Assembly: GCA_033578775.1 (NCBI GenBank) | Contig: JAVQWY010000014.1 | Coordinates: forward strand, 64,001-102,856 | Length of the DNA: 38,856 bases | Direction of reading: 5' to 3' | Source: Myxococcales bacterium | Lineage (GTDB): Bacteria > Myxococcota_A > Polyangia > Palsa-1104 > JAEUJZ01 | Part shown: positions 6,707-37,510 of the stretch, piece after piece | Position numbering within the stretch: position 1 is the stretch's first letter | How the letters are laid out: each line of letters opens with the position of its first letter | Position numbers and translations under genes: made by a program | The notes under the pieces: model-generated | What the model was told of the DNA's origin: nothing | The model's database searches: none | What the model saw: only the letters and a program-made list of their open reading frames with translations

Positions 6707-7360
6707 ATGTCCATGGACGAGCCCCATTGGAGCCTGGACGATCAGGCGCTGGTTGCCGCAGTGATTGCGGAGCGTCCGGGCGCATGGAATGCGTTTTTTG
6801 CGCGCTTTGAGCGGCTCATCATTTCCTGCGTACGCAAGACCTTGGTTCGGCACGGGTTTCCTCCACGGGAGGAGGACATCGAGGATCTGGTGTCTGCCAC
6901 CGCACTCAATCTGGTCCGGGACGGCTACTACAAGCTTCGCGCCTTCGATGCGTCCCGCGGCTATCGGCTATCTAGCTGGGTGGGGATGGTGGCCACCCAC
7001 ACAGCCTTTGATATGCTACGACAGCGTCCAGCTGAGGTGGCCCCCCGGGAGGGGGACAAGGGACCTGCCCAGGAGGTCGTAGCTGAGGGGGTAGATCCCT
7101 CGGAGAGGGTGCTGCGTGCGGAGCAGACGCGCCTGCTGCAGGAGGCCATCGCGAAGCTGTCGCCCACCGAGCAGCTCTTTGTGCGCTACTGCTTCGAAGA
7201 TGAGCTGGAACCGGAGCACATTGCGCAGCTTATGCAGATCTCGGTCAACACGGTCTACAGCCGAAAAAACAGGATGCGCGAGAAGCTGCGGCGCGTGATC
7301 GAATCCATGGAACCCCGGGAAGAAGCCCGCGGGAGACCCCGTAACAATCGGCAGGAGTGA
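6707..7360 (+). CDS. RNA polymerase ECF-type sigma-70 factor
   Basis: Region 2 (FFARFERLIISCVRKTLVRHGF...EDIEDLVSATALNLVR...SWVGMVATHTAFDMLRQR) and region 4 (LSPTEQLFVRYCFEDELEPEHIAQLMQISVNTVYSRKNRMREKL). Confidence 0.8.
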   Translation: MSMDEPHWSLDDQALVAAVIAERPGAWNAFFARFERLIISCVRKTLVRHGFPPREEDIEDLVSATALNLVRDGYYKLRAFDASRGYRLSSWVGMVATHTAFDMLRQRPAEVAPREGDKGPAQEVVAEGVDPSERVLRAEQTRLLQEAIAKLSPTEQLFVRYCFEDELEPEHIAQLMQISVNTVYSRKNRMREKLRRVIESMEPREEARGRPRNNRQE

Positions 7361-7363
7361 TCG

Positions 7364-8002
7364 ATGCCCATCGGATTGGCCCGACACGGCGGCCTGCCCA
7401 CCCAGGACCAGAAGGACCCAGTGGACGCGAAGCTCACCTGGTTGCTCCGGCACGGCAGCCGCCTTCCCTCCCTCCCCGACTCTGACGCATCCCCAGACGA
7501 GGTCCTGCTCCGCTATGTAGAGGGCAGCCTGAACCGAGACCTGCATCAGGTGGTCGAGCGCCGGCTGGCAGATGACCACGGGGCACGGTGCCGGGTATCG
7601 CTCCTCAAGAGCGCCTTGGCAGAGAGCGAGGGACCACCTCTGCCAAAGAAAGAAAGAAGCCATATCCTTCTTTATTTTGCGAAAGGCAAGCTACACCTCC
7701 TTCGCGCCCCGCAGGCTGCCGAATCCCCAACGCCCGGTGGAACTGTTCTGATCGCCATGCCCCAGCTGGGGCCCGGGGCCATCCTTCACCTTATGGTCAT
7801 GGAGGGGGGGGTGGGCGTCCAGGTTCGCGGTCCCGGGGTCACGGGGGTCAGCCTGCGCCACGGCGCGGCCGAGCCCCTACAAGCCCATGCCGATGGAGAG
7901 GGAGGGTTCCGCTTGGCGGCAGTTGCCCCAGCGCGCTACGAGCTGCGTGTCCACAAGGGCCCTGAGGAGATCCCGCTGGTCCTCGATATCCGCACCGGCT
8001 AG
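7364..8002 (+). CDS. putative anti-sigma factor (no complete HxxxCxxC zinc motif)
   Basis: Starts 4 bp after the ECF sigma stop. EVLLRYVEGSLNRDLHQVVERRLADDHGARCR resembles the N-terminal helix of anti-sigma factors. Assignment is by position. Confidence 0.35.
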   Translation: MPIGLARHGGLPTQDQKDPVDAKLTWLLRHGSRLPSLPDSDASPDEVLLRYVEGSLNRDLHQVVERRLADDHGARCRVSLLKSALAESEGPPLPKKERSHILLYFAKGKLHLLRAPQAAESPTPGGTVLIAMPQLGPGAILHLMVMEGGVGVQVRGPGVTGVSLRHGAAEPLQAHADGEGGFRLAAVAPARYELRVHKGPEEIPLVLDIRTG

Positions 8003-12107: not shown

Positions 12108-12227
12108 CCGCGCGCTCGCCGCCCTGGCTTATCGCGGGAAGCGCCTCTGGTTTCCGCGGCTCGCTGCAGGATGCATAGCTGGGGAAGCCATTGCGACGGC
12201 TGCCGCCCCATCGTATGGTAGGGCGCT

Positions 12228-13037
12228 GTGTCCATCCTTCCCGTGCACGCCGCTGGCTTTTCCGCCACCTTCCGCCTGCGCGAACTGTCTTCCGCCCTGC
12301 AAGGGGCTGACCTGACCATCGACAAGGACCTGATGCTGGCTCGCTTCCCTAGACGGGACGGGCTGGAACCGGTGGTGCTGGTCTTCGACTTTGGCGCTTT
12401 GGTCTGTGCGGGGCTCGACCCCGAGGAGCGAGAGCGTCTCATCAGCGCCGTGTCATCCCGCCTACCGCCAGAGCCCCACGCTCCCCTGACCGAAGACTTT
12501 CTCGTGGAGGTCCGCCCCGGCGCCCAGGTGGAGGTGCTCTTCGACCGGGTGGTGGTGCCCGAGGCCAACCTGCCCGTGCTGCGCATCGTCGGGCTGCTCC
12601 TGGCCCAGTCGGTGGCCCTGGACTACTATGAGGAAGATGTGCGCGACATCCTGGAGCGGACCGACGCGATCGTGACCTCCCTGCAGGCAACAGGACGTCT
12701 GCCCGGGCGGAGCCAGGACCTGGTCAGGTTCATCGGCTCGTGCATGGCCACGCGAAACGCCGTGATCGCCAAGCTGGCGCTGTTCGACAAGCCGGACCTA
12801 GCCTGGGAGCATCCCCAGATCGACCGGCTGTTCAATGGCCTCCGCCTCGAACTGGAGATCGCCGACCGGTACCGCGCGCTGGAGGCCAAGCTCCGAATGA
12901 TCCAGGAAAACCTCGTCCTGCTGGCCGATTTGTCACAGCAGCGCAGCACGTGGCGGGTGGAGATGGCCATCGTGCTGCTTATTTTGTTCGAGGTCGGCAT
13001 CATGCTGTGGCAAACGTGGCGCGGGGCAGCACACTAG
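12228..13037 (+). CDS. hypothetical protein with C-terminal TM helix (possibly DUF155/RMD1-like)
   Basis: 269 aa. C-terminal TM is MAIVLLILFEVGIMLW. No catalytic motif recognised. Confidence 0.4.
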   Translation: MSILPVHAAGFSATFRLRELSSALQGADLTIDKDLMLARFPRRDGLEPVVLVFDFGALVCAGLDPEERERLISAVSSRLPPEPHAPLTEDFLVEVRPGAQVEVLFDRVVVPEANLPVLRIVGLLLAQSVALDYYEEDVRDILERTDAIVTSLQATGRLPGRSQDLVRFIGSCMATRNAVIAKLALFDKPDLAWEHPQIDRLFNGLRLELEIADRYRALEAKLRMIQENLVLLADLSQQRSTWRVEMAIVLLILFEVGIMLWQTWRGAAH

Positions 13038-13039
13038 CG

Positions 13040-13750
13040 ATGGGTCGTCCGCCTCTGGTCGATGTGATCATCCCGGCGCTCGATGAAGAGCAGGCGCTGC
13101 CGCTGGTGCTGCGCGACTTGCGGGCGCAGCCATGGCCTCTGCGTCACATCGTGGTGGTCGACAACGGTTCGACAGATCGGACCGCAGAGGTGGCAGAGGC
13201 AGCCGGGGCAGTGGTCCTCAAGGAGCCACAGCGTGGCTATGGTGCTGCCTGCCTACGGGGTCTGCGTTTCCTGTCCCAGCTGTCGTTGCCCCCGGATGTC
13301 GTTGTGTTTCTGGACGGTGACTACTCCGACGACCCAGCCGAGGTCGCCTGGCTCCTGGATGCCATCGAGGCGGGCGCCGACCTGGCCATCGGCTCGCGGG
13401 TGCTCGGTCGGGCAGAGCCGGGGTCGCTCACACCCCAGCAGCGGATCGGCAACATCCTGGCCACCACGCTCATTCGGCTGGTCTACGGACAGCGCTACAC
13501 CGACCTAGGGCCCATGCGGGCCATACGCTATCCGGCCCTGTGTGCCCTGGCCATGCGCGACACCGGATATGGCTGGACGGTGGAGATGCAGGTCAAGGCC
13601 GTACGTCTGGGCCTGCGGGTGGTCGAGGTCCCGGTATCCTACCGGCGGCGTCGCGGCGGGGCATCGAAGGTTTCGGGCACGCTGCGCGGCACGCTGGGGG
13701 CAGGCTATAAGATTCTCTATACTGTTCTCCGCCACGCAACCGCCCGGTAG
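13040..13750 (+). CDS. family 2 glycosyltransferase (dolichyl-phosphate-mannose-synthase-like)
   Basis: VDVIIPALDEE...IVVVDNGSTDRT...VVFLDGDYSDDP...DLAIGSR are the GT2 DxD/DXD motifs. The ATG at 13040 lies 2 bp after the upstream stop; the longer 12740 ORF was rejected. Confidence 0.8.
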   Translation: MGRPPLVDVIIPALDEEQALPLVLRDLRAQPWPLRHIVVVDNGSTDRTAEVAEAAGAVVLKEPQRGYGAACLRGLRFLSQLSLPPDVVVFLDGDYSDDPAEVAWLLDAIEAGADLAIGSRVLGRAEPGSLTPQQRIGNILATTLIRLVYGQRYTDLGPMRAIRYPALCALAMRDTGYGWTVEMQVKAVRLGLRVVEVPVSYRRRRGGASKVSGTLRGTLGAGYKILYTVLRHATAR

Positions 13751-13816
13751 ACCCCCGGCCTCGCCCATCATCGGTGGAACCGACCGGACGCATTACAATG
13801 CGGCGCTCCTGGTTCC

Positions 13817-16039
13817 ATGAATCACTGCTGTCCACGGCGCCGCCTTGGGTGGACCGCCCTCGCGCTGATGCTGGCGCCCCTGTGCGCTCGCGCCGACGCC
13901 CGGCCCACGGCCCGTGCTTCCTTCACCCGAGTCCCCCCGCGCATCGACGGGCTGCTGGACGATGAGGCATGGCGCAACGCGACGCCCTACGGCGGCTTCG
14001 TCGAGCGCCGGCCGCTGCTTGGGGCCCGTCCGCCCGAGGAGACGACATTTTATGTACTATACGACACCGAGGCGCTCTACTTTGGCATCCGCTGCATCGA
14101 CAGCGAGCCGAGCAAGGTCCGCGGCCGGTCGGTCCAGCGCGACAGCTTCGCTCTCTTTTCCGATGATGCCATCAGCATCAAGCTGGATCCGCTCGGCGAC
14201 CGCCGCACCACGCTCGGCTTTGCTCTGTCGGCCTCTGGGGCTCAGCTGGACTACCGGGGCATCAACGAGTCCGAGTTCCGCGTCGAGTTCGACGCCGTCT
14301 GGCAGGCTGCAGCGCGCCGCACCCCCTTTGGCTGGTCGGCCGAGTTGCGCATCCCGCTGTCCTCGCTTGGCATCGACCCCCGTGCGCCGCCGGCCCGCAT
14401 TGGCCTCAACCTGAGCCGCGACCACAGCCGTCGCAACGCCACCTATGACTGGTCGCTGCTGCGGCCGCCCTTTGGCCCCATCGCCGCCAGCCTGTACGGC
14501 GATCTGCTGGGTCTGGACGAGCTGCCGCGGCACCTGTCCGGTCGCCCCCGGGCGCTGTCGGGCCTGAGCCTGGCCATTGTGCCCTACGCTCTGCTCGGCT
14601 TCCGCCTGCTGCCGCAGCACCCCCAGGATGTCGCCACTGCAGGCCTGGACGCTCGCCTGGACCGGGGCGAGGTGCTGAGCCTGCACCTGTCGCTCAACAC
14701 CGACTTTGCCCAGGTGGACCTGGACGACCAGCGCATCAACCTGGGCCGCTTCGGGCTGTTTTTTCCCGAGAAACGGGACTTTTTTCTACGCGACCTGGAG
14801 CTGTTCACGTTTGGACGGCCGCAGGAGGCTCAGCTTCTTCAGACGCGCCGCATTGGCCTGCGCGGCTTCGACGTGCTGCCGCTGCTGGACGGTCTGAAGC
14901 TGCTGGGGAGGCTGCGGCGCTGGCTGCGGCTGGGCCTGTTGCAGGCCGTCACCCTGCCTGCCGCCGGCACGCCCTACACGCTGTATCTGGTGGGACGGGC
15001 CCAGGCGGAGCTAGGCGGCGGCTCCAATCTGGGCGTGATGGTGACGCACCGGCAGTCCCTGCAGGATCGCGACGACCGCAACCTGGTCCTCGGCATGGAT
15101 GGCGCCTGGCGCAGCACGGGCGGACTGCTCCTGCAGGCTTTTGCTCTGCTCAGTCTCACCGGTCCACGGGCCGCCCCGCCCGAGGAGGCCGCCGGAGGGG
15201 AGGGCAGGGGGGCCCATGCAGACCAGTTCGCCCCGGGGCTGGGCGCCGAGGCCAGCTTCCGCGGCCTGCTGCTGCGGCCCCAGCTCCGCTACGCCTACTA
15301 TCACCCGGCGCTGCGCGCTGACCTCGGCTTCTTCCGTCGCGTCGGCGTGCACGATGGCAGCGCTAGCCTGGCGATAGAGCCGCGCTTTCAGCGCCGTGGC
15401 GTGGAGCGGCTCAGCATCGCCGCCGGCGGTGGGGTCGTTGCCACTGCAGACGGCACGCAGCTGCTTGACTGGCACGCCGGCGCCCGCGCCGACCTGCACT
15501 GGATCATGGGGTTTGCCCTGAGCATGAGCGGCGAGAGGGTAGAGGAAACCGTGCAGGCGCCCTTTTCGGTCGGTCCCATTCAGATCCGAGCGGGCCGCTA
15601 TGGCATGAACCTGTTCCGCGCCGCAGGCTCTACCCCTGCGGTCTGGTCCGTCAGCGGGTCGGTGTCCACCGAGTACCGCGATTACTATGGTGGTCAGCTG
15701 CTCGGCCTCCAGCTCGGTCTGCAGACGCGGCCGCTGTCGCTGCTACGGGCCGAGGCCGGGGTGGAGCTGAGCCGGATCTGGTTTGCTGACCCTCGCGAAA
15801 GCCTCCATACCGGCGTTCTCAACGGGCGTGTGGCGCTCGGCTTCACCCCACAGCTGGGCCTCGACCTGTTTCTTGGCTGGAACAGCGTTGCCGACCTGGT
15901 TCGCCTACAGGGACGGCTGCGCTTCCGCTATGCCGAGGGCAGCGATCTCTTCGTGGTCTATCAGCACGATCTGTCGGCAGGCGGGACAAGCCGCTTTCAG
16001 ACCTTGCTCGTCAAGGTCACCGTGCGCTGGCCGCAGTAG
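13817..16039 (+). CDS. DUF5916 / carbohydrate-binding family 9-like domain protein (secreted, probable OM-associated)
   Basis: Signal peptide. FTRVPPRIDGLLDDEAWRNATPYGGF...FYVLYDTEALYFGIRCIDSEPSKV...RDSFALFSDDAISIKLDPLGDRRT matches the CBM9-like N-terminus of DUF5916 proteins. Confidence 0.6.
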   Translation: MNHCCPRRRLGWTALALMLAPLCARADARPTARASFTRVPPRIDGLLDDEAWRNATPYGGFVERRPLLGARPPEETTFYVLYDTEALYFGIRCIDSEPSKVRGRSVQRDSFALFSDDAISIKLDPLGDRRTTLGFALSASGAQLDYRGINESEFRVEFDAVWQAAARRTPFGWSAELRIPLSSLGIDPRAPPARIGLNLSRDHSRRNATYDWSLLRPPFGPIAASLYGDLLGLDELPRHLSGRPRALSGLSLAIVPYALLGFRLLPQHPQDVATAGLDARLDRGEVLSLHLSLNTDFAQVDLDDQRINLGRFGLFFPEKRDFFLRDLELFTFGRPQEAQLLQTRRIGLRGFDVLPLLDGLKLLGRLRRWLRLGLLQAVTLPAAGTPYTLYLVGRAQAELGGGSNLGVMVTHRQSLQDRDDRNLVLGMDGAWRSTGGLLLQAFALLSLTGPRAAPPEEAAGGEGRGAHADQFAPGLGAEASFRGLLLRPQLRYAYYHPALRADLGFFRRVGVHDGSASLAIEPRFQRRGVERLSIAAGGGVVATADGTQLLDWHAGARADLHWIMGFALSMSGERVEETVQAPFSVGPIQIRAGRYGMNLFRAAGSTPAVWSVSGSVSTEYRDYYGGQLLGLQLGLQTRPLSLLRAEAGVELSRIWFADPRESLHTGVLNGRVALGFTPQLGLDLFLGWNSVADLVRLQGRLRFRYAEGSDLFVVYQHDLSAGGTSRFQTLLVKVTVRWPQ

Positions 16040-29933: not shown

Positions 29934-30156
29934 ATCCAGGCCCCAGAAGAGTGCAGGGGCTGACGCAAAGGAGCGAATGCAGGCTTGAGTAGCGATAAAC
30001 CGGGTGAATCCAGGCCCCAGAAGAGTGCAGGGGCTGACGCAAGGGAACCTGGGCCTGGCGGAGGAGACTAGGGCTTGCGCAGGAACTTAGCTCCCGTGGC
30101 CTGTCTCCCGGAGTAACAGGGACCTGGGCCTGGCGGAGGAGACTAGGGCTTGCGCA
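29934..30156. repeat. two adjacent repeat-spacer-repeat structures (35-bp perfect repeats A and B, each x2, spacers 39-40 bp)
   Basis: Repeat A (atccaggccccagaagagtgcaggggctgacgcaa) lies at 29934-29968 and 30008-30042. Repeat B (acctgggcctggcggaggagactagggcttgcgca) lies at 30047-30081 and 30122-30156. B copy 2 contains the sterol methyltransferase stop codon. Confidence 0.9.
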
Positions 30157-31168
30157 CCAGAAAGTAGAACATCGGCGTGAAGATGCCGGTTCGCCCCCCC
30201 TCGACGAGGTAGCCCGCCCCGCGCTGCAGGAACGAGCTGACCGCGGTGGCGCCCTTGGGTGCCACGCCCACGGCCTCCAGGCTGCGGACCATCTGGTGGG
30301 TCAGCCATCGGCCCACGGGGCTGGAGCGGAACCCGCTGGGGGTGTACCAGGGGGCTGCCAGGGGCAGGTACCAGGGCGTCTCCGGGTCGGCGGTCAAGGC
30401 CCGGTCCTCGCTTTCCAGCACCTCGAAGCCGACCGCGCGCAGCGCTTCCAGCACCTCCGGCACCGTCGCCAGCTCGGGCAGCGCGTTGCCTTCCTCGATG
30501 CCCTGCCGGATCTCCCGATGGCGGGGGTTTTGCGAGTCGTACCGGTCGGTCACGCACCACTCGTAGGCGGCAAAGTGCGCGCCCGGCTTGAGCACGCGGA
30601 AAACCTCGCCGTAGATTTGCCGCTTGTCCGGCGCGTGGCAGGTGGCCTCGATGGCATAGGCGGCATCGAAGGTGCCATCTGGCACCGGAACGGACAGAAA
30701 GTCGCACTTGAGGAGCTCGCACAGGTGGCTCAGGCGGGCCGCCTCGTTGTGTTTGCGGGCCCGTGCGATCTGGTAGTCGTTGTTGTTCAGGCCGACGATG
30801 GTGGCGCCGCTAAAGCGGGCAATGGAGCGCATCGGCCCCCCCACCCCGCAGCCGAAATCGGCCACCCTCATGCCCGGCCGCAAGCCCAGGCGCAGCGCCA
30901 AAAAGTGCTCGTAGCGCGCGATGGAAGCAGCAAATGCCTCGCCGCGGAAGCGCGGCGCAAAGTGAAAGGACTGTCCCCAGCCGAACTCATAGAAATCCGT
31001 GACAAGATCGTAAAAGTTGTTGACCAGCGTCGCATAGGACTGTTTGCGACGTTCCGTGCTGCCGCCCCGGGAACGGTCATACTGGGCGGTGTAGTTGTCC
31101 ACGGTGGCCTGAACCTCGTCCCGGGCGAGGGATGTCTGACAGATGTCGGTGACCGATGGTGCGTCCAT
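30143..31168 (-). CDS. sterol 24-C-methyltransferase (ERG6/SMT1 family, SAM-dependent)
   Basis: Near-colinear match to ERG6 hallmark blocks: YEFGWGQSFHFAPRFRGEAFAASIARYEHFLA, FGCGVGGP, VGLNNNDYQIARA, YAIEATCHAP, VLKPGAHFAAYEWCVTDRYDSQNPRHREI, GGRTGIFTPMFYFLVRKP. Start at MDAPSV; the upstream ORF extension was rejected. Confidence 0.85.
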   Translation of the reverse strand: MDAPSVTDICQTSLARDEVQATVDNYTAQYDRSRGGSTERRKQSYATLVNNFYDLVTDFYEFGWGQSFHFAPRFRGEAFAASIARYEHFLALRLGLRPGMRVADFGCGVGGPMRSIARFSGATIVGLNNNDYQIARARKHNEAARLSHLCELLKCDFLSVPVPDGTFDAAYAIEATCHAPDKRQIYGEVFRVLKPGAHFAAYEWCVTDRYDSQNPRHREIRQGIEEGNALPELATVPEVLEALRAVGFEVLESEDRALTADPETPWYLPLAAPWYTPSGFRSSPVGRWLTHQMVRSLEAVGVAPKGATAVSSFLQRGAGYLVEGGRTGIFTPMFYFLVRKP

Positions 31169-31314
31169 GGCTGAGCCCTGTTGCTGTGTGCTGGTAGGAA
31201 ACCCGGAACCCGCGCGGGTGTCAATGTGCGATTCCGCACGGGCGGGAACCTGTTGACCCCAGCCCGCGCTGGAGGCAGCATGAGGCAATTTGTTTGATCC
31301 TGCCGGAGCATGCC

Positions 31315-32652
31315 ATGAGCGGAGAGCCTGAGCAGCCTGTTCCTGTCCCTGTCTATGACGTTTGCGTTGTCGGTGCCGGCCCGAGCGGTGCCACGTGTGC
31401 ATACTATCTGGCGCAGCGCGGCAAGCGGGTTTTGTTGCTGGAGAAAAAGACCTTTCCGCGCGACAAGCTGTGCGGCGATGCCGTCTGCACCAACGCCCAG
31501 ATCCACCTGGACCGCATGGGCGTGCTTCGGGAGCTAGAGGAGGAGGGCACCGGTCACTGGGCTGCAGTGGGGGGCCTGGTCAGCCCGCGGCGCATCGGGT
31601 TCATTGGCAACTCGGCCAAGCAAAATGGCCGCCCGCTGGTGATGGCCGTCAAGCGCATGATCCTCGACGAGAAGATTGCGCGCGCGGCGCAGCGGGCCGG
31701 GGCCCTTCTGGTGGAAAACACCACCGTGACCGGTGCCTCTCTCTCGCGGGCCGAAGGGGTGTGGACGGTCCAGGCAACCCGCAACGGGGCGGCCGTGTCC
31801 TACCGGGCGCGGGCGCTGGTGGCGGCAGATGGGGCGCTGTCGCGGCTCACCCAGGCCCTTGGCATCCCGACGCCGCCGCCAGACAGCGTGTGCAGCCGGG
31901 CCTACATCAAGGCCGGCACGCATCAGTTCGACATGGACGGCGTGGTCTTTTATGAGCTGGACATGGTGCCCGGCTACTGCGCCCTGTTCCGCGAGGCTGG
32001 CGGCGACGTCAACTACTGCGTCTATATCATCCCGGGCGGGCGCTGCTCCATTGACGATCTTTACGAGATGCACCACCGCATCCTCCGCGACAACCCGTAT
32101 GTGCGTCGGGCGGTCGGTCCCCACGCGGTCATCGACAAGATGAAGGGGGCACCGCTGCGCCTGGGTGGCATCCGCAAAAGCTACCACGACCACCTGCTCA
32201 TTGTCGGCGATGCGGCCGGACACATTGACCCGCTCACCGGCGAGGGCATCCATCATGCCATGGACGGTGGGTACCTGGCCGCCGAGGTGCTGTGCGAGGC
32301 CCTGGCAGTCGGCGACCTCAGCGAGCGGTTCCTGCGCCGCTATCAGGACCGCTGGATGCGCGCCTTTGGCCGCGATTTCTTCTGGTCCAAGAAGATGGCC
32401 CAGGTCTTTGCGAAGGCGCCGATTCTGGTCGATGCCAGCGCCGCGGTCATGCAGCGCAAGGGCGCGGACTCGCTGCTGGAATGGGGCCGTGTCATGACCG
32501 GCGTGGCCCCCAAGCGCTACTTTCTGCGGCCGGAGGTGGCGCTGCCCCTTCTTGTGGAGACGGGACGCCAGGTCGTCCGGCAAGCCTTGGGGAAGATCGT
32601 TCCAGATGTCAGGGTCTCTCTCGATGGAGTGGTTCGGCCCTGGATGCCCTAG
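31315..32652 (+). CDS. geranylgeranyl-reductase-family FAD-dependent oxidoreductase
   Basis: YDVCVVGAGPSGATCAYYLAQRGKRVLLLEKK is the Rossmann GxGxxG. LCGDAV. LIVGDAAGHIDPLTGEGIHHAM is GGR/ChlP-like. Alternative start at 31294. Confidence 0.8.
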   Translation: MSGEPEQPVPVPVYDVCVVGAGPSGATCAYYLAQRGKRVLLLEKKTFPRDKLCGDAVCTNAQIHLDRMGVLRELEEEGTGHWAAVGGLVSPRRIGFIGNSAKQNGRPLVMAVKRMILDEKIARAAQRAGALLVENTTVTGASLSRAEGVWTVQATRNGAAVSYRARALVAADGALSRLTQALGIPTPPPDSVCSRAYIKAGTHQFDMDGVVFYELDMVPGYCALFREAGGDVNYCVYIIPGGRCSIDDLYEMHHRILRDNPYVRRAVGPHAVIDKMKGAPLRLGGIRKSYHDHLLIVGDAAGHIDPLTGEGIHHAMDGGYLAAEVLCEALAVGDLSERFLRRYQDRWMRAFGRDFFWSKKMAQVFAKAPILVDASAAVMQRKGADSLLEWGRVMTGVAPKRYFLRPEVALPLLVETGRQVVRQALGKIVPDVRVSLDGVVRPWMP

Positions 32653-32662
32653 TGGTGCTCCC

Positions 32663-33061
32663 TTCGGGGCGGGGGCCCCGGTTCGCGGGGCAGGGGGGCA
32701 GCGGACTCAGGTGGGCCGGGAAAATATCCCAAGGCGCTTGAGAGGCGAGGGAGAGCACAAGGCTCGAGCCGGTGTCAATCAGGTTTGCCCCCGGGAAAAT
32801 ATCCCAAGGCGCTTGAGAGGCGAGGGCCCCGGTCCGCGGGGCAGGGGGGCAGCGGACCCGAGCCGGCTGGCGCCGCAGGGCTCTCCGGCTGGGGGCGGAG
32901 CAGGCGCGTCGGGAAGGACACGGGGCCCTGCGCCCGGGCACCCGCTGGGGCTGCGGCCGTGTCATCATCCTGCCATATCCTGCCATCGGCGGGCGGAGAT
33001 GCGCGCTACAGGAGATCCCTCGCCCCCCGCTGGGGCTGCGGCCGTGTCATCATCCTGCCAT
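32663..33061. repeat. complex nested direct-repeat region filling the intergenic space
   Basis: C is a 34-bp repeat with 1 mismatch at 32673-32706 and 32824-32857. D is a 36-bp perfect repeat at 32716-32751 and 32791-32826. E is a 36-bp perfect repeat at 32941-32976 and 33026-33061, overlapping the downstream ATG. Confidence 0.9.
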
Positions 33062-34271
33062 GCCATCCCTGCCCGCGCCTGCTGAGCAGGCGAAGCATTT
33101 CTGCCTGGAGGCGGGCGTGGTGTTTCTGAACCACGGCTCGTTTGGCGCCTGTCCCCGTCCTGTGCTGGCGGAGCAGGACCGGCTGCGCGTCCGGCTGGAG
33201 CAGGAGCCGGTGCGCTTTTTCCTCCAGGAGGCGCCGGTGCTGCTCGGGCGGGCCCGCGCGGCGCTGGCCGAGCTGGTGGGGGCCGACGAGCAGGATCTGG
33301 TCTTTGTGGCCAATGCCACCACGGCTGTGAACGCCGTGCTGCGCTCGCTGGATCTCCGCCCGGGAGATGAGCTGCTCGAGACGGACCACAGCTACAACGC
33401 CTGCCGCAACGTGCTGCGCTACCTGGCGGCGCGCACCGGCGCCCTCGTCCGCACCGTCGCGCTGCCCCTGCCCATCTCCGGCCCCCAGGAGGTGGTGGAG
33501 CGGGTGCTGCAGGAGGTCACGCCGCGCACGCGCCTGGCGCTGCTGGACCACGTGACCAGCCCCACAGCGCTGGTGCTGCCCGTGGCCGAGCTGGTACGCG
33601 CCCTCCAGGAGCGCGGGGTGGACACGCTGGTGGACGGCGCGCATGCCCCCGGGATGCTGCCCCTGGACCTGCGCGCCCTGGGCGCGGCCTACTATGCTGG
33701 CAACTGCCACAAGTGGCTGTGCACGCCCAAGGGTGCTGGGTTCCTGTACGTCCGTCGGGACCGCCAGGTGGGCCTGGTGCCGCCGGTCATCAGCCATGGC
33801 TACAACGCGCCGCCGTCTGAGCAGCCGCGGCTGCACGCCCTCTTTGACTGGACCGGCACGGTGGACCCGACGCCGGCGCTGTGCGTGCCCGCGGCGATTG
33901 CGTTTCTGTCCGGCCTGATGCCGGGCGGGCTGGCAGCGCTGCAAGAGCGCAACCGACAGCTGGCCTGTCAGGCCCGGCAGGTGCTGTGCGCAGCCCTGGG
34001 CCTGCCGCCGCCCTGCCCCCAGCAGATGCTGGGCAGCATGGCCGCGGTCCCCTTGCCCGACGAGGACAGGGGGACGCCGCGGTCGCCGCTCCAGCCCGAT
34101 CCGCTGCAGACGGAGCTGCGCGAGCGGTTTGGCATCCAGGTGCCGATCATGTCCTGGCCTGCATGGCCCCACCGCCTGCTGCGCATCTCTGCCCAGGCCT
34201 ACAACAGCCTGGCCCAGTACGAGTACCTGGCAGAGGCTCTGGGCACCCTGCTGGGGGCGTCCCGCCGGTAG
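33060..34271 (+). CDS. class V aminotransferase-fold PLP enzyme (isopenicillin-N-epimerase / cysteine-desulfurase-like)
   Basis: FLNHGSFGACP, ANATTAVNAV, HVTSPTALVLPV and GNCHKWLCTPKG (K is the PLP lysine). Confidence 0.8.
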   Translation: MPSLPAPAEQAKHFCLEAGVVFLNHGSFGACPRPVLAEQDRLRVRLEQEPVRFFLQEAPVLLGRARAALAELVGADEQDLVFVANATTAVNAVLRSLDLRPGDELLETDHSYNACRNVLRYLAARTGALVRTVALPLPISGPQEVVERVLQEVTPRTRLALLDHVTSPTALVLPVAELVRALQERGVDTLVDGAHAPGMLPLDLRALGAAYYAGNCHKWLCTPKGAGFLYVRRDRQVGLVPPVISHGYNAPPSEQPRLHALFDWTGTVDPTPALCVPAAIAFLSGLMPGGLAALQERNRQLACQARQVLCAALGLPPPCPQQMLGSMAAVPLPDEDRGTPRSPLQPDPLQTELRERFGIQVPIMSWPAWPHRLLRISAQAYNSLAQYEYLAEALGTLLGASRR

Positions 34272-34404
34272 CAGGCCCCAGCTCAGGGCTCCTGCGGCGA
34301 CCGGCCTGCGGGCGCCTGCCCTATGCTCGGCGGGCACCCAAGGTCCCCGCGGTCCGAACGCAACCCCAGGGCCGGGGGTCCTGCCGCTGCCCCTGCTGGT
34401 GTAC

Positions 34405-34505
34405 AATGTTTGTCGAAAAAATAGCGATCATCTGGGCGCATATTTGGGGTTGACATTAAACGGACTCTATATAATACATAGACATAGCTTCATCGCTCGA
34501 GGAGG
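34405..34505 (+). promoter_or_regulatory. AT-rich island with sigma-70-like hexamers upstream of the ECF sigma gene
   Basis: TTGACA at 34450-34455 and TATAAT at 34470-34475, with a short 14-bp spacer. GGAGG RBS at 34501-34505. This is the only strongly AT-rich ~100 bp in this part of the window. Confidence 0.35.
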
Positions 34506-34514
34506 CGTTGGTCC

Positions 34515-35096
34515 ATGTCCTGTCCCTCTCCACCCCGAACCCAGTCCGCGCTGCCTCCCACTGCAGTCATCGTCAAAAGCCGCGCCCGGCTGTTGCGCCA
34601 GGCGCGCCGCATGCTTCGCGATCGAGACGGTGCCGAAGACGCCGCCCAGGACGCGCTGGTGTGCGCCCTGCGCGGCCTGCAGGACTTCCGCGGCGAGGCG
34701 CAACTGGGCACCTGGCTGTACCGCCTCGGCGTCAACGCCGTCCTGATGAGCCTGCGCCGCCAGCGCCGCGCCGCCGCCCGCCTGTCCCGTGCCGCCCGCC
34801 TGTCTGCCGGCCGGCCCAGCTGGCTCCACGGAACCTCCGAGGCCCTGGCCTACCGCGCCCAGCCGCTCGAGCAGCTGGAGGCCCACGAGCTCGCCCGCTC
34901 GCTCCGCCGCGCCGTCCGGGAACTGCCCGATGCCTACTCGACCGTGGTGACCCTGTGCGACCTGGACGGCCGCCCCCTGCCCGAGGTCGCCAGCACCCTC
35001 GGCCTCAGCGTCGCCGGCGTGCGCACCCGGCGTCTGCGCGCCCACCGCATGCTCCGCCAGGCCCTGGGCCCCCAGGCCGCCGGGTGGGCCCCATGA
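34515..35096 (+). CDS. RNA polymerase ECF-type sigma-70 factor
   Basis: Region 2 (EDAAQDALVCALRGLQDFRGEAQLGTWLYRLGVNAVLMSLRRQ) and region 4 (LPDAYSTVVTLCDLDGRPLPEVASTLGLSVAGVRTRRLRAHRMLRQAL). Confidence 0.75.
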   Translation: MSCPSPPRTQSALPPTAVIVKSRARLLRQARRMLRDRDGAEDAAQDALVCALRGLQDFRGEAQLGTWLYRLGVNAVLMSLRRQRRAAARLSRAARLSAGRPSWLHGTSEALAYRAQPLEQLEAHELARSLRRAVRELPDAYSTVVTLCDLDGRPLPEVASTLGLSVAGVRTRRLRAHRMLRQALGPQAAGWAP

Positions 35097-36025
35097 CCCC
35101 CCAGCTGGGCCTGGTCTGCCTGTCGGCCGGACCCGAGGTCCGCTTCCGCACCACCACCCGTGCCTTCCTGCACCGCCACCGCCCCTGCGAGGCCCAGCAG
35201 CTGCTCCGGGCACTCTACCGCGACAACCTCGCCCGCCTGGAACGCGCCTTCGCCTTCTGCGCCTCGCTCGGCATCTCGCTCTACCGCATGCCCTCCAGCC
35301 TCTTTCCCTTCGCCGACGCCGAGGGCGCCCCCCTGCTCGAAGAGCTCGCCGAGCCGCTGGCCGCCCTGGGCCGCCAGGCCCGCCAGCAAGGCCTCCGTCT
35401 GCTGCTCCACCCCGACCAGTTCGTCGTCCTCAGCTCCGACTCGGCCGCCACGGTGCGCAACGCCCACCTCATGCTCGCCATGCAGGGACGCCTGATGGAC
35501 CTGCTCGACCAGCCCCGCTCCCCCTGGGCCGCCATCAACATCCACGGCGGCAAGGCCGGACGCCTGGCCGCCCTGGTCCGCGAGATCCGCTCCCTGCCCG
35601 ACGCCGTGCGCACCCGCCTCACCCTGGAAAACGACGAGCGCGCCTACGGCAGCGCAGAGATCCTAGAAGCCTGCCAGCAGGCCGGCGTGCCCATGGTCTT
35701 CGACGCCCACCACCACCTTGTTCACGACCGCCTGTCCTCCTACGACGACCCGAGCATCGCCCACTGGCTGGCTGCCGCCCGCCAAAGCTGGCCCGACCCC
35801 TCCCTGCAGGTGGTCCACATCTCCAACGGCCGCGACCACCTGCAGGACGCCCGCCACAGCGACTGGATCACCCACATGCCCACCGCCTACCGCCACGCCC
35901 CCTGGATCGAGGTGGAGGCCAAAGCCAAAGACGAGGCCATCCGCCGCCTCCGCCAACGCTGGCGCCCCCTGCGAGCCCGACCCTCCGGCCCCCGCGCGCC
36001 CGGTGCCCAGCAAGCAAACCGCTAG
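35093..36025 (+). CDS. uvsE: UV DNA damage endonuclease
   Basis: LGLVCLS, SLGISLYRMPSSLFPF, LLLHPDQFVVLSS, NIHGG, LTLENDER and HIS of the UVDE/UvsE family. ATGA overlap with the ECF sigma stop. Confidence 0.85.
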   Translation: MTPQLGLVCLSAGPEVRFRTTTRAFLHRHRPCEAQQLLRALYRDNLARLERAFAFCASLGISLYRMPSSLFPFADAEGAPLLEELAEPLAALGRQARQQGLRLLLHPDQFVVLSSDSAATVRNAHLMLAMQGRLMDLLDQPRSPWAAINIHGGKAGRLAALVREIRSLPDAVRTRLTLENDERAYGSAEILEACQQAGVPMVFDAHHHLVHDRLSSYDDPSIAHWLAAARQSWPDPSLQVVHISNGRDHLQDARHSDWITHMPTAYRHAPWIEVEAKAKDEAIRRLRQRWRPLRARPSGPRAPGAQQANR

Positions 36026-36127
36026 GGCCCCCCGCCAGCCGCCCCCCCGCACGCCGCTCCCCCCAAGATGCCCTGCGAGCCCGACCCTCCGGCCCCCGAC
36101 GCGCCCGGTGCCCAGCAAGCAAACCGC
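35967..36127. repeat. 56/57-bp direct repeat (1 indel) with 104-bp period; copy 1 is the last 18 codons of uvsE
   Basis: ccctgcgagcccgaccctccggcccccg(a)cgcgcccggtgcccagcaagcaaaccgc at 35967-36022 and 36071-36127. Confidence 0.85.
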
Positions 36128-36136
36128 CCCTGCCCT

Positions 36137-37510
36137 TTACGGCGCGACCATCAAGCAGCGGGTGACCGGCTGCAGGATGTCGGCCGTCACATAAAGATAA
36201 TACCGTCGCCCGCTCACCAGCGGCGCCGGCGGCCCCGACAGCGGGAAACGCTGCCGCCCGCCCGCAGGCACCTGCCCATAGCGCACCGTGCCGCTGGCCC
36301 ACGGCTCCCCCTCCGGCGGCACATCGATGCGCCAAATCGTCCCAGCGGGCAAATCCAGATTCGGCGGCACCGTCGGCGAGGCCGCCCCCTCCTCCAGCAC
36401 ATACAGGTAGCGCGCCCGACCCCCACGCCACACGATCCGCCCATCCGGCGTCACCCCCTCCCCCCGCGTGCAGGCCGAGGGCCGGAACAACCGCTGCTCG
36501 TCGATCGGCCCAAACACATACCGCATCCCGGCAAACATCTCCTGGCGCAGCCCCCGCCGCTCCGCCTCCCGGACAAAGAAGCGCCGCATGCGGGCATCGT
36601 CCGTCGTGACAAAGATGGTGTGATGGGGGTTGTCCGGCGTGGCCCGCGAAAACCCGTTGTTCTCCTCTGGCGGATAGGCCCCCAGCCCAGAGGTGTCGAT
36701 CCAGCCCGCCCCCATGGCGATGCCGCGATCAAAAAACCCGTTGATGAAGTTGCCAGGCGCGTCCAGGTACCAGTTGGACGGCCCCCGCGGCGCGCTGCTG
36801 GAGTGGCAGCAGACGCAGGCCGTGGACTCGATCTGGCTCCGCACCCAGGCCAGCTCCTGCGCATACTCCGGATCCTGCAGCCGCTCATCCGGTCGGTCCG
36901 CCCCAGGGGCAGTCGGCACGGGATAGTAGGGTCGCTGGGTGCGCACCCGGTCGCAGCTCGCATAGTCGGCAAAGCGCCGTCCCGGCTCCGTGGCCCCAGA
37001 GATCATCTCCCAGGTGCACACCTGCCCCCCTGGCGACCGACCGGGCGGCTCCCCTGGCAGCGGGTCCTGGCATCGCCGCACCGGCTGCTGGAACACGACC
37101 AGCCCCCCGCCGCGGTCCTGGTCCGGATCGACCCCCCCACAGATCGGCGCCGGGTCGAACGCCCCCCGTCCGAAAAACTCACACCCCCGCAGCGTGGAGC
37201 CGCACGCCCCCGGGTCGTTGCCCGGCAGGCTGGCCCGGATGTAGCGGCCCTCCTGCTCCCAGATGCAGTAGCCCAGCACCTGCTCCAGGTTGCAGGCCTG
37301 GCCGATCGTCACCTCCCCCCCCCACGAGTCGCAGTCTTGCCGAATCTGCTCCTCGGTCCAGTCCCCGTGGTAGTCGCGACACTCGAACTTGCGGCTGAAG
37401 CGGTTTTCATACCGGCACGAGCCCGCGATCTCCTCCGGAATGACCGGCACTTCTTTCTTGGCGCAGCCCCCCAGCACAGCGACCAGGACACACATGATGC
37501 GGCACAACAT
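36137..37510 (-). CDS. hypothetical lipoprotein containing a single CXXCH motif
   Basis: Lipobox VAVLGGCA. Cys-rich N-terminal region. CVCCH matches the heme-c-binding pattern; a possible PSD1/DUF1587-like relation is unverified. Confidence 0.45.
   Translation of the reverse strand: MLCRIMCVLVAVLGGCAKKEVPVIPEEIAGSCRYENRFSRKFECRDYHGDWTEEQIRQDCDSWGGEVTIGQACNLEQVLGYCIWEQEGRYIRASLPGNDPGACGSTLRGCEFFGRGAFDPAPICGGVDPDQDRGGGLVVFQQPVRRCQDPLPGEPPGRSPGGQVCTWEMISGATEPGRRFADYASCDRVRTQRPYYPVPTAPGADRPDERLQDPEYAQELAWVRSQIESTACVCCHSSSAPRGPSNWYLDAPGNFINGFFDRGIAMGAGWIDTSGLGAYPPEENNGFSRATPDNPHHTIFVTTDDARMRRFFVREAERRGLRQEMFAGMRYVFGPIDEQRLFRPSACTRGEGVTPDGRIVWRGGRARYLYVLEEGAASPTVPPNLDLPAGTIWRIDVPPEGEPWASGTVRYGQVPAGGRQRFPLSGPPAPLVSGRRYYLYVTADILQPVTRCLMVAP

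What the first reader, a model, noticed from the sequence alone, without database searches (positions are those of the whole stretch)
34405..36025. ECF sigma factor translationally coupled (ATGA) to UV-damage endonuclease UvsE instead of an anti-sigma, behind the only strongly AT-rich island
ECF sigma genes are normally followed by their anti-sigma. Here the sigma stop overlaps the uvsE start and no anti-sigma-like ORF follows. This suggests a dedicated sigma/DNA-repair module, for example UV- or light-inducible repair, and myxobacteria do have light-responsive ECF circuits. The ~100-bp AT-rich patch upstream (TTGACA ... TATAAT with a short 14-bp spacer, GGAGG RBS) is very conspicuous in this GC background.
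Basis: partly seen in the sequence, partly recalled or inferred. Interest (0 to 1): 0.5.

Follow-up and report, generated by a model that had tools for sequence, protein, structure and literature searches.

The report
Light-switch sigma factor carrying a UV-repair gene
A small alternative sigma factor, from a family that normally sits beside a vitamin-B12 light sensor gene (CarH/LitR) and never has an anti-sigma partner, has picked up the UV-damage endonuclease gene uvsE as an overlapping downstream gene, so UV repair is probably switched on by visible light; this is a local variation on a known kind of bacterial light switch.

Summary
An ECF sigma gene (34515-35096) overlaps uvsE (35093-36025) by ATGA, no anti-sigma follows, and it lies behind the lowest-GC patch of the window. 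The main new point is what the sigma is. It belongs to a tight family, mostly from uncultured Myxococcota. In 11 of 13 relatives with readable upstream DNA it lies head-to-head with a MerR/B12-binding CarH/LitR photoreceptor gene. None of 14 relatives has an adjacent anti-sigma or uvsE. Their AT-rich intergenic regions carry a sigma-70-type promoter and CarH-type 11-bp TnnACA direct repeats: 18 in-phase pairs against 0.13 expected. The window's island is a weaker copy of that region: TTGACA, TATAAT/TAATAC, one exact repeat pair and one repeat at the likely transcription start. No carH lies in the window, but a CarH of the sigma-linked subfamily carries accession numbers in the same two series as the window's proteins, so it is probably encoded on another contig. 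Best reading: a litR-litS-like light switch in which uvsE rides on the sigma transcript. Light induction, CarH binding and co-transcription are inferred, and the sigma-uvsE link is lineage-specific. It is a new variant of a known kind, of moderate interest.

The parts
34379..34535 (.). AT-rich regulatory island upstream of the sigma gene
   Evidence: Minimum GC is 0.36 in 80-nt windows, the lowest in the window. The intergenic regions of relatives are similarly AT-rich, GC 0.34-0.54 in loci of 47-76% GC.
34400..34416 (-). Tandem pair of CarH-type direct repeats, TGTACAatgttTGTCGA (TnnACA on the minus strand, 11-nt spacing). It lies where relatives have the carH-side operator and the -35 of the carH promoter.
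   Evidence: One pair in the 146-nt island against 0.001 expected (2 of 2000 shuffles). Over the whole window the pattern is found twice against 0.24 expected. Relatives carry TGTCAA-N5-TGTnTA at the equivalent place. The published operator rule is nnnnTnnACAn x3-4 (PMC9304148). TGTACA is also the class II LitR site (PMC9758184).
34450..34455 (+). -35 hexamer TTGACA of the sigma promoter
   Evidence: Read. A TTGAC(A/G/T) hexamer at a comparable distance from the sigma start codon is visible in 13 of 14 relatives; L037 shows none.
34470..34477 (+). -10 region: TATAAT at a 14-nt spacer, or more plausibly TAATAC (34472-34477) at a 16-nt spacer
   Evidence: Relatives use 16-17 nt spacers and -10 hexamers such as TATAAC, TAGAAC, TAAACT and TAATGT. 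The consensus scan (16-18 nt spacer, T required at position 6) finds nothing.
34457..34484 (+). One full TnnACA repeat (TAGACA, 34479-34484) with two in-phase pseudo-repeats (TAAACG at 34457, TATATA at 34468), covering the spacer, the -10 and the likely transcription start
   Evidence: Read. A position-weight matrix (PWM) built from the relatives' operators has its best hit in the whole window here: 34465-34486 minus strand, 11.9 bits. That is far below the 24-33 bits of the training sites. TAGACAAA follows the -10 in L036 and L037 as well; in L044 the equivalent site is TCTACAAAG, and TAGACAAAC lies upstream of its -35.
34501..34505 (+). Ribosome-binding site GGAGG, 9 nt before the sigma ATG
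   Evidence: A GGAG at a similar distance from the start codon is seen in nine of the relatives.
34515..35096 (+). ECF sigma factor, 193 aa, a member of a CarH-linked family without anti-sigma partners
   Evidence: In alignment A1 it is 39-59% identical to 40 relatives, with 36 invariant columns. Synteny is shown.
35093..35096 (+). ATGA stop/start overlap between sigma and uvsE
   Evidence: The gene boundary is the same in a separately called Logan contig.
35093..36025 (+). UV-damage endonuclease UvsE/UVDE, 310 aa
   Evidence: PF03851 at 201.8 bits and NF002640 at 409 bits. It aligns to T. thermophilus UVDE (2J6V) at 3e-19 with the HP, HGG, ENDER and D..HH motifs kept. Thousands of homologues share 54-62% identity and the best shares 70%. 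GC3 is 0.92, like its neighbours.
35967..36127 (+). The last 56 nt of uvsE (35967-36022) are repeated at 36071-36127, identical apart from a 1-nt insertion, with a 48-nt spacer. This is a possible scar of a recent rearrangement.

Best explanation
The segment is a two-gene operon, ECF sigma plus uvsE, driven from an AT-rich control region of the CarH/LitR type.

The sigma belongs to a family, mostly from uncultured Myxococcota, that has no anti-sigma partner. Its own transcription is controlled instead: in relatives the gene is transcribed divergently from a B12-dependent photoreceptor-repressor gene (carH/litR). The shared intergenic region carries sigma-70-type promoters overlapped by tandem 11-bp TnnACA repeats, which is the known CarH operator design.

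In this organism carH has become unlinked. It appears to be encoded on another contig. uvsE has been joined to the end of the sigma gene with an ATGA overlap.

Proposed working. In the dark, AdoCbl-bound CarH binds the repeats at 34400-34416 and/or 34457-34484 and blocks the TTGACA-N16-TAATAC promoter. Light photolyses the cofactor, CarH leaves, and the housekeeping RNA polymerase transcribes sigma and uvsE together. UvsE (dark repair of UV photoproducts) is therefore made whenever visible light signals coming UV exposure, while the sigma turns on its own, still unknown, regulon.

Shown here: gene identities; the overlap; family membership; synteny in relatives; repeat enrichment in relatives; the presence of the motifs in the window; and a CarH-subfamily protein whose accessions fall in the same series as the window's proteins.

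Inferred: CarH binding here, light induction, co-transcription, translational coupling and the adaptive rationale.
For: (1) Family. There are 52 clusters at 42-61% identity (E 1e-54 to 1e-30), then a sharp drop to generic ECFs. The alignment has 36 invariant columns.

(2) Synteny. A MerR + B12-binding gene lies directly upstream and divergent in L037, L039, L041, L042, L044, L046, L047, L049, L126, L127 and L128. That is 11 of 13 relatives with readable upstream DNA. Seven further sigma/CarH cluster pairs share the same short contig length.

(3) No relative has an adjacent anti-sigma, and the downstream genes differ between loci (same calls).

(4) Operator repeats. The 12 relatives show 68 TnnACA/TGTnnA sites against 25.6 expected, and 18 same-orientation pairs at 11-nt spacing against 0.13 expected (0 of 500 shuffles). 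The two relatives without carH show no pair. The window island has 5 sites against 0.9 expected and one pair against 0.001 expected.

(5) Published operator rule. CarH binds tandem 11-bp repeats nnnnTnnACAn that overlap the -35 or -10 (PMC9304148).

(6) Shared promoter layout. L036 reads TTGACA-N17-TATAAA-GAT-TAGACA. The window reads TTGACA-N14-TATAAT-ACA-TAGACA.

(7) carH in the same organism. P0128 (MCS6912422.1) and P0219 (MDW8282253.1) are CarH-subfamily proteins: 55% identical to the L044 CarH, Wx9EH present, ExHxxG...GG present, best NCBIfam hit CarH at 1.2e-44. The window's proteins are MCS6914684-86 and MDW8282017-19, so both pairs fall in the same accession series and carry the same organism names, but sit on other contigs.

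(8) Precedents. In Streptomyces, LitR-AdoB12 represses bidirectional litR/litS promoters and LitS is an ECF sigma (PMC11519972). LitR-family regulons include a DNA photolyase gene (PMC9758184).

(9) No sigma-70-like promoter or terminator-like site was found on the + strand between or inside the two genes.
Against: - carH is not in the 38.8-kb window. That it belongs to the same genome rests on accession-number proximity, not on sequence in hand.
- The window's repeats are weak versions. The matrix built from relatives scores them 7-12 bits against 24-33 bits for the training sites.
- The exact pair lies 34 nt upstream of the -35 (repeat starts 50 and 39 nt upstream of the -35 start) rather than over it. 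The repeats over the -10 are one full site plus two 3-of-4 pseudo-sites, which are easy to get by chance in AT-rich DNA.
- At whole-window level the pair pattern is not rare (2 found, 5 of 100 shuffles reach 2).
- The promoter is non-canonical: TATAAT at 14 nt, or TAATAC without the final T at 16 nt.
- uvsE is linked to the sigma in 0 of 14 relatives, so selection for the link is unproven.
- A near-perfect 56-nt duplication at the 3' end of uvsE suggests a recent rearrangement.
- There are no expression data.
Confidence: 0.5

Rival explanations
1. Recent chance juxtaposition with a decaying control region. A rearrangement moved the sigma gene, with the stump of its old carH-sigma intergenic region, between an aminotransferase gene and uvsE. 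The CarH sites are relics and no longer work. The pair is expressed weakly or constitutively from a damaged sigma-70-type promoter, and the ATGA overlap has no regulatory meaning.
For: The sigma-uvsE link is found in 0 of 14 relatives. carH is absent from the window. The operator-like sites score far below those of relatives. The spacer between the two perfect hexamers is 3 nt shorter than in L036. A 56-nt near-identical duplication lies right after uvsE. AT-richness begins abruptly at about 34400, with GC-rich DNA to its left.
Against: Both TGTnnA hexamers and their exact 11-nt spacing survive although no leftward gene remains to need them. The two relatives that lack carH have no such pair. 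A cognate-subfamily CarH seems to be kept in the genome. A workable TTGACA-N16-TAATAC promoter and a good ribosome-binding site are present. The island is identical in two MAG versions that differ elsewhere. uvsE has the same GC3 as its neighbours, so it is not a fresh foreign insert.
Confidence: 0.3
2. This is a dedicated sigma/repair module in which the ECF sigma is held by an anti-sigma encoded elsewhere, is released by UV or light stress, and activates its own promoter and hence uvsE.
For: Most ECF sigmas nearest in sequence among solved structures (SigW, SigH, RpoE) are anti-sigma controlled. Myxococcus has the CarQ/CarR light circuit (PMC9304148).
Against: No anti-sigma lies next to the gene in the window or in any of 14 relatives. 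The promoter elements upstream are sigma-70-like (TTGACA / TAnAAn) in nearly every family member, and no ECF-type -35/-10 is shared. A dyad search around the sigma 3' ends found only coding-sequence conservation. The 7364-8002 ORF follows another ECF sigma and matches no family. The module is not conserved.
Confidence: 0.1
3. uvsE is transcribed on its own from a promoter inside the 3' part of the sigma gene, so the two genes are only physically adjacent.
For: The consensus scan is limited to sigma-70-type sites, so other promoter types would be missed. UvsE is a widespread stand-alone gene.
Against: No promoter-like site was found in 34200-36300 on either strand, and no terminator-like site on the + strand. 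The coding regions overlap by 4 nt. A purine-rich GGGTGGG lies 6-12 nt before the uvsE ATG inside the sigma ORF, which fits coupled translation.
Confidence: 0.1

Closest known systems
LitR-LitS light switch of Streptomyces (S. coelicolor, S. griseus)
   Same: A class I, AdoB12-binding MerR-family photoreceptor (LitR/CarH) represses bidirectional promoters in the dark. One of those promoters drives an ECF sigma gene, which then switches on light-induced genes, and the model described in PMC11519972 includes no anti-sigma. The relatives of the window's sigma have exactly this head-to-head layout.
   Different: The phylum differs (Myxococcota, not Actinomycetota), and orthology of the sigma to LitS was not tested. 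In the window carH is unlinked. The cargo is a DNA-repair gene fused into the sigma operon, rather than carotenoid genes read from a LitS-type promoter (GCATCCR-N15-CVGAAD).
CarH operators of Thermus thermophilus, Bacillus megaterium and myxobacteria
   Same: Tandem 11-bp direct repeats nnnnTnnACAn overlap the -35 or -10 of sigma-70-type promoters, and degenerate 'dr' pseudo-repeats are common outside Cystobacterineae (PMC9304148). The relatives' intergenic regions fit this design, and the window keeps one exact pair and one full site over the start region.
   Different: Known myxobacterial CarH targets are carotenoid (crt) genes and carH itself. PMC9304148, which compared 27 Myxococcales genomes, does not mention an ECF sigma as a CarH neighbour or target. 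Binding was not tested here.
LitR-family light regulons that include DNA repair (PplR/PmlR of Pseudomonas)
   Same: Light-inducible genes under LitR-family repressors include the photolyase gene phrB. The binding-site consensus is T(G/A)TACA / TGTACA at sigma-70-type promoters (PMC9758184). TGTACA occurs at 34400-34405.
   Different: Those are class II LitRs without B12, which work with LOV proteins. The repair gene is a photolyase, not UvsE, and no sigma factor sits in between.
CarQ-CarR-CarS circuit of Myxococcus xanthus
   Same: It is a light-responsive ECF sigma in a myxobacterium.
   Different: CarQ is held by the membrane anti-sigma CarR (DUF1109) and released by singlet oxygen and plasmalogens. 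carQRS is autoregulated from an ECF-type promoter. None of these features is seen here.
UvsE/UVDE (D. radiodurans, T. thermophilus, B. subtilis YwjD, S. pombe Uve1)
   Same: The window protein matches the family model end to end and keeps the metal-site motifs visible in the alignment to 2J6V.
   Different: I found no report of a uvsE gene fused to a sigma-factor operon. A full-text search for UV damage endonuclease + ECF + sigma factor + light returned no paper.

Membership tests
ECF (group IV) sigma-70 factors | Only the sigma-2 and sigma-4 domains, about 180-200 aa, scoring above the family threshold | tested here: met
   PF04542 (48.3 bits) and PF08281 (41.1 bits) are both above their cut-offs. 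TIGR02937 sigma70-ECF scores 75.6 against 42.9. The protein is 193 aa.
Canonical ECF sigma / anti-sigma module | An anti-sigma gene co-transcribed with, or adjacent to, the sigma gene | tested here: not met
   The downstream gene is uvsE and the next gene is convergent. No anti-sigma-like neighbour appears in any of 14 relatives.
CarH/LitR-controlled ECF sigma switch (litR-litS type) | A class I (B12-binding) CarH/LitR gene adjacent and divergent | tested here: not met
   No CarH-like coding sequence lies in the 38.8-kb window (tblastn). The feature is met in 11 of 13 relatives.
CarH/LitR-controlled ECF sigma switch (litR-litS type) | A CarH with photoreceptor motifs encoded by the same organism | tested here: inconclusive
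   P0128/P0219 have Wx9EH and ExHxxG-x41-SxS-x25-GG, and their best NCBIfam hit is CarH. Their accessions, MCS6912422 and MDW8282253, lie in the same two series as the window's MCS6914685 and MDW8282018. The contig itself could not be fetched.
CarH/LitR-controlled ECF sigma switch (litR-litS type) | An operator of three or more tandem 11-bp TnnACA repeats overlapping the promoter | tested here: inconclusive
   One exact pair lies at 34400-34416, 34 nt upstream of the -35. One full site plus two 3-of-4 pseudo-sites lie over the -10 and start region. Matrix scores are low. Relatives clearly meet the feature.
CarH/LitR-controlled ECF sigma switch (litR-litS type) | Light-dependent transcription of the sigma gene | not testable with these tools
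   This needs expression or binding experiments.
CarH/LitR-controlled ECF sigma switch (litR-litS type) | Sigma orthologous to LitS, or in the same ECF group | not tested
   No LitS sequence or ECF-group models were available. The ECF reclassification paper does not name LitS and, in the passages searched, mentions MerR-like regulators only for ECF groups that also have anti-sigma factors (PMC7826278).
UvsE / UVDE UV-damage endonuclease | A full-length match to the family model | tested here: met
   PF03851 scores 201.8 bits against a cut-off of 24, covering profile positions 1-270 of 275. The NCBIfam equivalogs fall just below their strict cut-offs: NF002640 at 409 against 456, and TIGR00629 at 116 against 124.
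UvsE / UVDE UV-damage endonuclease | Conserved metal-binding and catalytic residues | tested here: inconclusive
   The alignment to 2J6V keeps LHPDQ, IHGG, LENDER and FDAHHH. It covers only residues 35-212. That these motifs are the metal ligands is from my memory of the T. thermophilus UVDE structure, not from a tool.
CarQ-CarR-CarS circuit | A DUF1109 anti-sigma CarR and the antirepressor CarS next to the sigma | tested here: not met
   Neither neighbour is of that kind, and no such Pfam hit was found among the 35 window ORFs scanned.

The most novel reading that the evidence does not exclude
A previously undescribed family of anti-sigma-less ECF sigma factors, mostly from uncultured Myxococcota, acts as the output of B12/CarH photoreceptors. 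It would be a convergent or shared counterpart of the actinobacterial LitR-LitS switch. In this lineage the switch has directly captured uvsE, so that visible light sensed through coenzyme B12 pre-induces light-independent excision repair of UV photoproducts.
Probability: 0.4. Interest if true: 0.55.

Novelty: new variant of a known kind. Interest (0 to 1): 0.4.

Why it matters
If true, B12-based photoreceptors would feed into alternative sigma factors outside Streptomyces, in a phylum where light signalling has been studied mainly through CarH/CarA repression of carotenoid genes and the CarQ/CarR anti-sigma route. Bacteria would also be shown to use visible light as an early warning to induce dark repair of UV damage, and not only photolyase and carotenoids. 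The family could further supply compact parts for optogenetic circuits: repressor, operator and an orthogonal sigma needing no anti-sigma. The value is modest for three reasons. The logic is already known from litR-litS. The uvsE link is seen in one organism only. Nothing has been measured.

Tried and rejected
- CarH in the window: tblastn with three relatives' CarH proteins gave nothing below E = 0.3. The same search on L001, which reaches 3.2 kb beyond the window end, gave no hit.
- Wider context around the window's own sigma: the look-up returned only a 3-kb Logan contig.
- The genome scan with UvsE returned mostly Nostocales at 51-54% identity and no Myxococcota relative other than the window's own MAG. 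This reflects the peptide-pattern method rather than phylogeny. The protein search shows an ordinary, very widespread UvsE clade. I therefore dropped the idea of a recent transfer from cyanobacteria, and GC3 matches the neighbours as well.
- The metagenome scan with the sigma alignment gave only 4 true family loci among 80.
- A MAFFT alignment of the intergenic regions was uninformative.
- A dyad search for an ECF-type promoter around the sigma 3' ends recovered only coding conservation.
- Rfam found no RNA family in 34150-36250.
- There is no stable structure or terminator after uvsE; the fold z-score is 0.84.
- A B12 riboswitch or small RNA as the explanation for the island is rejected for the Rfam reason above.
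- The 7364-8002 ORF as cognate anti-sigma is rejected. It follows another sigma, matches no family and has no zinc-finger anti-sigma motif.
- The Takano 2005 litS paper is not held in the library.
- An ECF group number could not be assigned.
Full report
**What is there.**
The window is 38,856 nt at 68% GC. It matches a Myxococcota metagenome-assembled genome (MAG): isolate SKYG55, JANWXW010000122.1. The proteins of the region are MCS6914684-86 and MDW8282017-19.

At 34515-35096 (+) lies a 193-aa ECF sigma factor. It hits Sigma70_r2 and Sigma70_r4_2, and TIGR02937 at 75.6 bits against a cut-off of 42.9. No equivalog-level family is reached; the best is PRK11922 at 109 bits against 204.

Its TGA overlaps the ATG of a 310-aa UvsE/UVDE at 35093-36025. 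UvsE hits PF03851 at 1.7e-59 and NF002640 at 9e-123. It aligns to Thermus UVDE (2J6V) with the HP, HGG, ENDER and D..HH motifs kept.

The next gene (36137-37510) is convergent and matches no family. The upstream gene (33060-34271, +) is a class V aminotransferase.

Between the aminotransferase and the sigma lies the lowest-GC patch of the window: 34379-34535, minimum GC 0.36, against 0.45 or more for all other low-GC patches. It contains TTGACA (34450-55), TATAAT (34470-75, 14-nt spacer) and GGAGG (34501-05). The consensus scan finds no sigma-70 promoter with a 16-18 nt spacer and no + strand terminator.

The island is identical in two other assemblies. One of them (L001) differs from the window at 8 other positions in the 5.8 kb where they overlap.

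**What the sigma is.**
A protein search gives a compact family: 52 clusters at 42-61% identity (E 1e-54 to 1e-30), then a gap down to generic ECFs. The alignment of 41 members has 36 invariant columns.

I read the genomic context of 14 distinct relatives.
- In 11 of the 13 with readable upstream DNA, the gene directly upstream and divergent encodes a MerR + B12-binding_2 + B12-binding protein, which is a CarH/LitR-type photoreceptor-repressor.
- Two relatives (L043, L129) lack it. One contig (L036) ends 155 nt upstream.
- Seven further sigma clusters and CarH clusters share the same short contig length, which suggests more such pairs.
- No relative has an anti-sigma next to the sigma, and none has uvsE. 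The downstream genes vary: a 540-590 aa protein with no family, Kelch, GMC oxidoreductase, PilZ, or convergent genes.

So the missing anti-sigma is a trait of the family, while the uvsE link is peculiar to this organism.

**The AT-rich island in the light of the relatives.**
The carH-sigma intergenic regions are AT-rich as well, GC 0.34-0.54 in loci of 47-76% GC. They share two elements.

- Next to carH: TGTCAA-N5-TGT(T/A)TA. On the carH strand this reads TnnACA-N5-TTGACA, a repeat pair whose second member is the -35 of a carH promoter placed so close to the start codon that the mRNA would be nearly leaderless.
- Next to the sigma: TTGAC(A/G/T)-N16/17-TAnAAn, overlapped or followed by more TGTnnA/TnnACA units at 11-nt spacing. 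An example is L042, TGTTTGTTTAC TGTTTGTATAT TGTTTGTTTTG.

This is the published CarH operator design: tandem 11-bp direct repeats nnnnTnnACAn, three or four of them, overlapping the -35 or -10, with degenerate pseudo-repeats common outside Cystobacterineae (PMC9304148).

The numbers are as follows.

| Set | Sites found | Sites expected | 11-nt same-orientation pairs | Pairs expected |
|---|---|---|---|---|
| 12 relatives | 68 | 25.6 | 18 | 0.13 (0 of 500 shuffles reach 18) |
| L043, L129 (no carH) | 4 and 5 | 1.4 and 3.4 | 0 | - |
| Window island, 146 nt | 5 | 0.9 | 1 | 0.001 (2 of 2000 shuffles) |

The window's pair is TGTACAatgttTGTCGA at 34400-34416.

The sigma-proximal layout also matches L036. 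L036 reads TTGACA-N17-TATAAA-GAT-TAGACA. The window reads TTGACA-N14-TATAAT-ACA-TAGACA. TAGACA (34479-84) is in 11-nt phase with two 3-of-4 pseudo-sites at 34468 and 34457, which cover the -10.

**Limits of that evidence.**
- A matrix built from the relatives' carH-side element has its best hit in the whole window inside the island (34465-34486 minus strand, 11.9 bits), and 34398-34419 ranks third (7.1 bits). The training sites score 24-33 bits, so the window carries weak versions.
- Over the whole window the pair pattern occurs twice against 0.24 expected, and 5 of 100 shuffles reach two.
- The exact pair lies upstream of the promoter, not over it.
- The 14-nt spacer would cripple a sigma-70 promoter. 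Relatives use 16-17 nt and loose -10 hexamers such as TATAAC, TAGAAC, TAAACT and TAATGT. TTGACA-N16-TAATAC (34472-77) is therefore the more likely promoter. That would put the start near 34484, on the TAGACA site. This is inference.

**Where carH is.**
No CarH-like sequence lies in the window or in the 3.2 kb beyond it in L001.

A search with a relative's CarH found a coherent subfamily of about 55 clusters at 47-56% identity. It includes P0128 (MCS6912422.1, 'Myxococcota bacterium', contig of 130,878 nt) and its near-identical partner P0219 (MDW8282253.1, 'Myxococcales bacterium', contig of 88,675 nt). These accessions fall in the same two series, and under the same organism names, as the window's proteins (MCS6914685.1 and MDW8282018.1). 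The two accession pairs are 2,263 and 235 numbers apart.

P0128 has the Wx9EH motif, an ExHxxG-x41-SxS-x25-GG motif and a RAWEARY recognition helix. Its best NCBIfam hit is CarH at 1.2e-44, below the equivalog cut-off (motif definitions from PMC9304148). I infer that the organism keeps the cognate CarH on another contig. I could not fetch that contig.

**How it most likely works.**
By analogy with litR-litS of Streptomyces, CarH bound to AdoCbl would occupy the repeats in the dark and block the sigma-70-type promoter. In that system LitR-AdoB12 represses bidirectional litR and litS promoters in the dark, and the ECF sigma LitS then drives light-induced genes (PMC11519972). Here, light would release CarH, and sigma and uvsE would be transcribed as one mRNA. 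The 4-nt overlap, and a GGGTGGG 6-12 nt before the uvsE ATG, would couple their translation.

UvsE would thus be made in the light, ahead of or along with UV damage. Light-induced DNA repair under LitR-family regulators is known for photolyase in Pseudomonas (PMC9758184).

Shown: gene identities, family membership, synteny, repeat statistics and motif positions. Inferred: binding, induction, co-transcription, coupling and benefit. I put this at about 0.5.

**Rivals.**
1. Recent chance juxtaposition with a decaying control region (about 0.3). It is favoured by the absence of the link in relatives, the weak sites, the odd promoter and a near-perfect duplication of the last 56 nt of uvsE 48 nt downstream (35967-36022 against 36071-36127). 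Against it: the exact repeat pair survives with no leftward gene to serve, a usable promoter and ribosome-binding site are present, the island is identical in two diverged assemblies, and a cognate CarH appears to be retained.
2. It is contradicted by the family-wide lack of an anti-sigma, the sigma-70-type promoters and the lack of conservation.
3. An independent uvsE promoter inside the sigma gene (about 0.1). No such site was found, but only sigma-70-type sites were scanned.

**Comparison with what is known, and novelty.**
The closest system is litR-litS. The operator logic is that of CarH in Thermus, Bacillus and myxobacteria.

Differences: the phylum; the unlinked carH in this organism; and a repair gene carried inside the sigma operon rather than carotenoid genes read from a sigma-specific promoter.

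The survey of 27 Myxococcales genomes (PMC9304148) and the Myxococcus light-response review (PMC8156234) mention ECF sigmas only in connection with CarQ; neither describes an ECF sigma as a CarH neighbour or target. The ECF reclassification (PMC7826278) does not name LitS. In the passages I searched, it mentions MerR-like regulators only for groups that also have anti-sigma factors. A full-text search found no paper linking UV damage endonuclease to an ECF sigma and light.

UvsE itself is an ordinary member of a very widespread clade: thousands of homologues at 54-62% identity in Cyanobacteria, Pyrinomonadaceae and Oxalobacteraceae, with the best at 70%. Its GC3 matches its neighbours.

I rate this a new variant of a known kind, with interest 0.4. 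The CarH-linked sigma family is the more general finding. The uvsE fusion is a single-lineage curiosity until expression data exist.

Noticed in passing
window 35967-36022 and 36071-36127: The last 56 nt of uvsE, which encode a C-terminal tail that does not align to other UvsE proteins, are repeated 48 nt downstream. The copy is identical apart from a 1-nt insertion and ends just before the stop of the convergent gene. It looks like the scar of a recent duplication or rearrangement. It is present in both MAG versions.
   Followed up: partly
window 30143-31579 (-) and 31198-32652 (+): One protein has a SAM-methyltransferase domain plus the Sterol_MT_C domain (1.4e-24), so it is sterol-methyltransferase-like. 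It overlaps or abuts an FAD-dependent oxidoreductase of the geranylgeranyl-reductase / FAD_binding_3 type. This is a possible sterol or isoprenoid modification locus in a Myxococcota MAG.
   Followed up: no
window 6707-7360 (+) and 7364-8002 (+): A second ECF sigma factor is followed immediately by a 212-aa protein with no Pfam or NCBIfam family and no zinc-finger anti-sigma motif. It may be a novel anti-sigma for that sigma. It is unlikely to serve the sigma at 34515.
   Followed up: partly
L037 5080-6777, L039 4410-6182, L040 2180-3796; also downstream of the sigma in L046 and L047: In one sub-group of relatives the sigma is followed on the same strand by a 540-590 aa protein with no Pfam hit. 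That gene is preceded by a conserved CGTGATAT(A/C)T -10-like motif in L039/L040, L046 and L047. It may be a conserved partner or first target of the sigma. It has no counterpart in the window.
   Followed up: partly
L126 4559-6517 (-); L128 2067-2780 (+): In one relative the genes convergent on the sigma are ogt and an ada/alkA fusion (alkylation repair). In another, a heme oxygenase gene sits beside carH. These hint at repair- or light-related neighbourhoods elsewhere in the family.
   Followed up: no
L037, L042, L046, L127 and others: 30-40 nt from the carH start codons: The carH promoter -35 (TTGACA on the carH strand) lies only about 30-35 nt from the carH start codon. carH mRNA in this subfamily would therefore be leaderless or nearly so.
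   Followed up: no
window 13158-13174 (-): This is the only other exact TGTNNA-N5-TGTNNA match in the window (TGTCGAACCGTTGTCGA). It lies in the gap between candidate ORFs 12222-13037 (DUF155) and 13751-16039 (DUF5916). It is GC-rich and probably a chance match.
   Followed up: no
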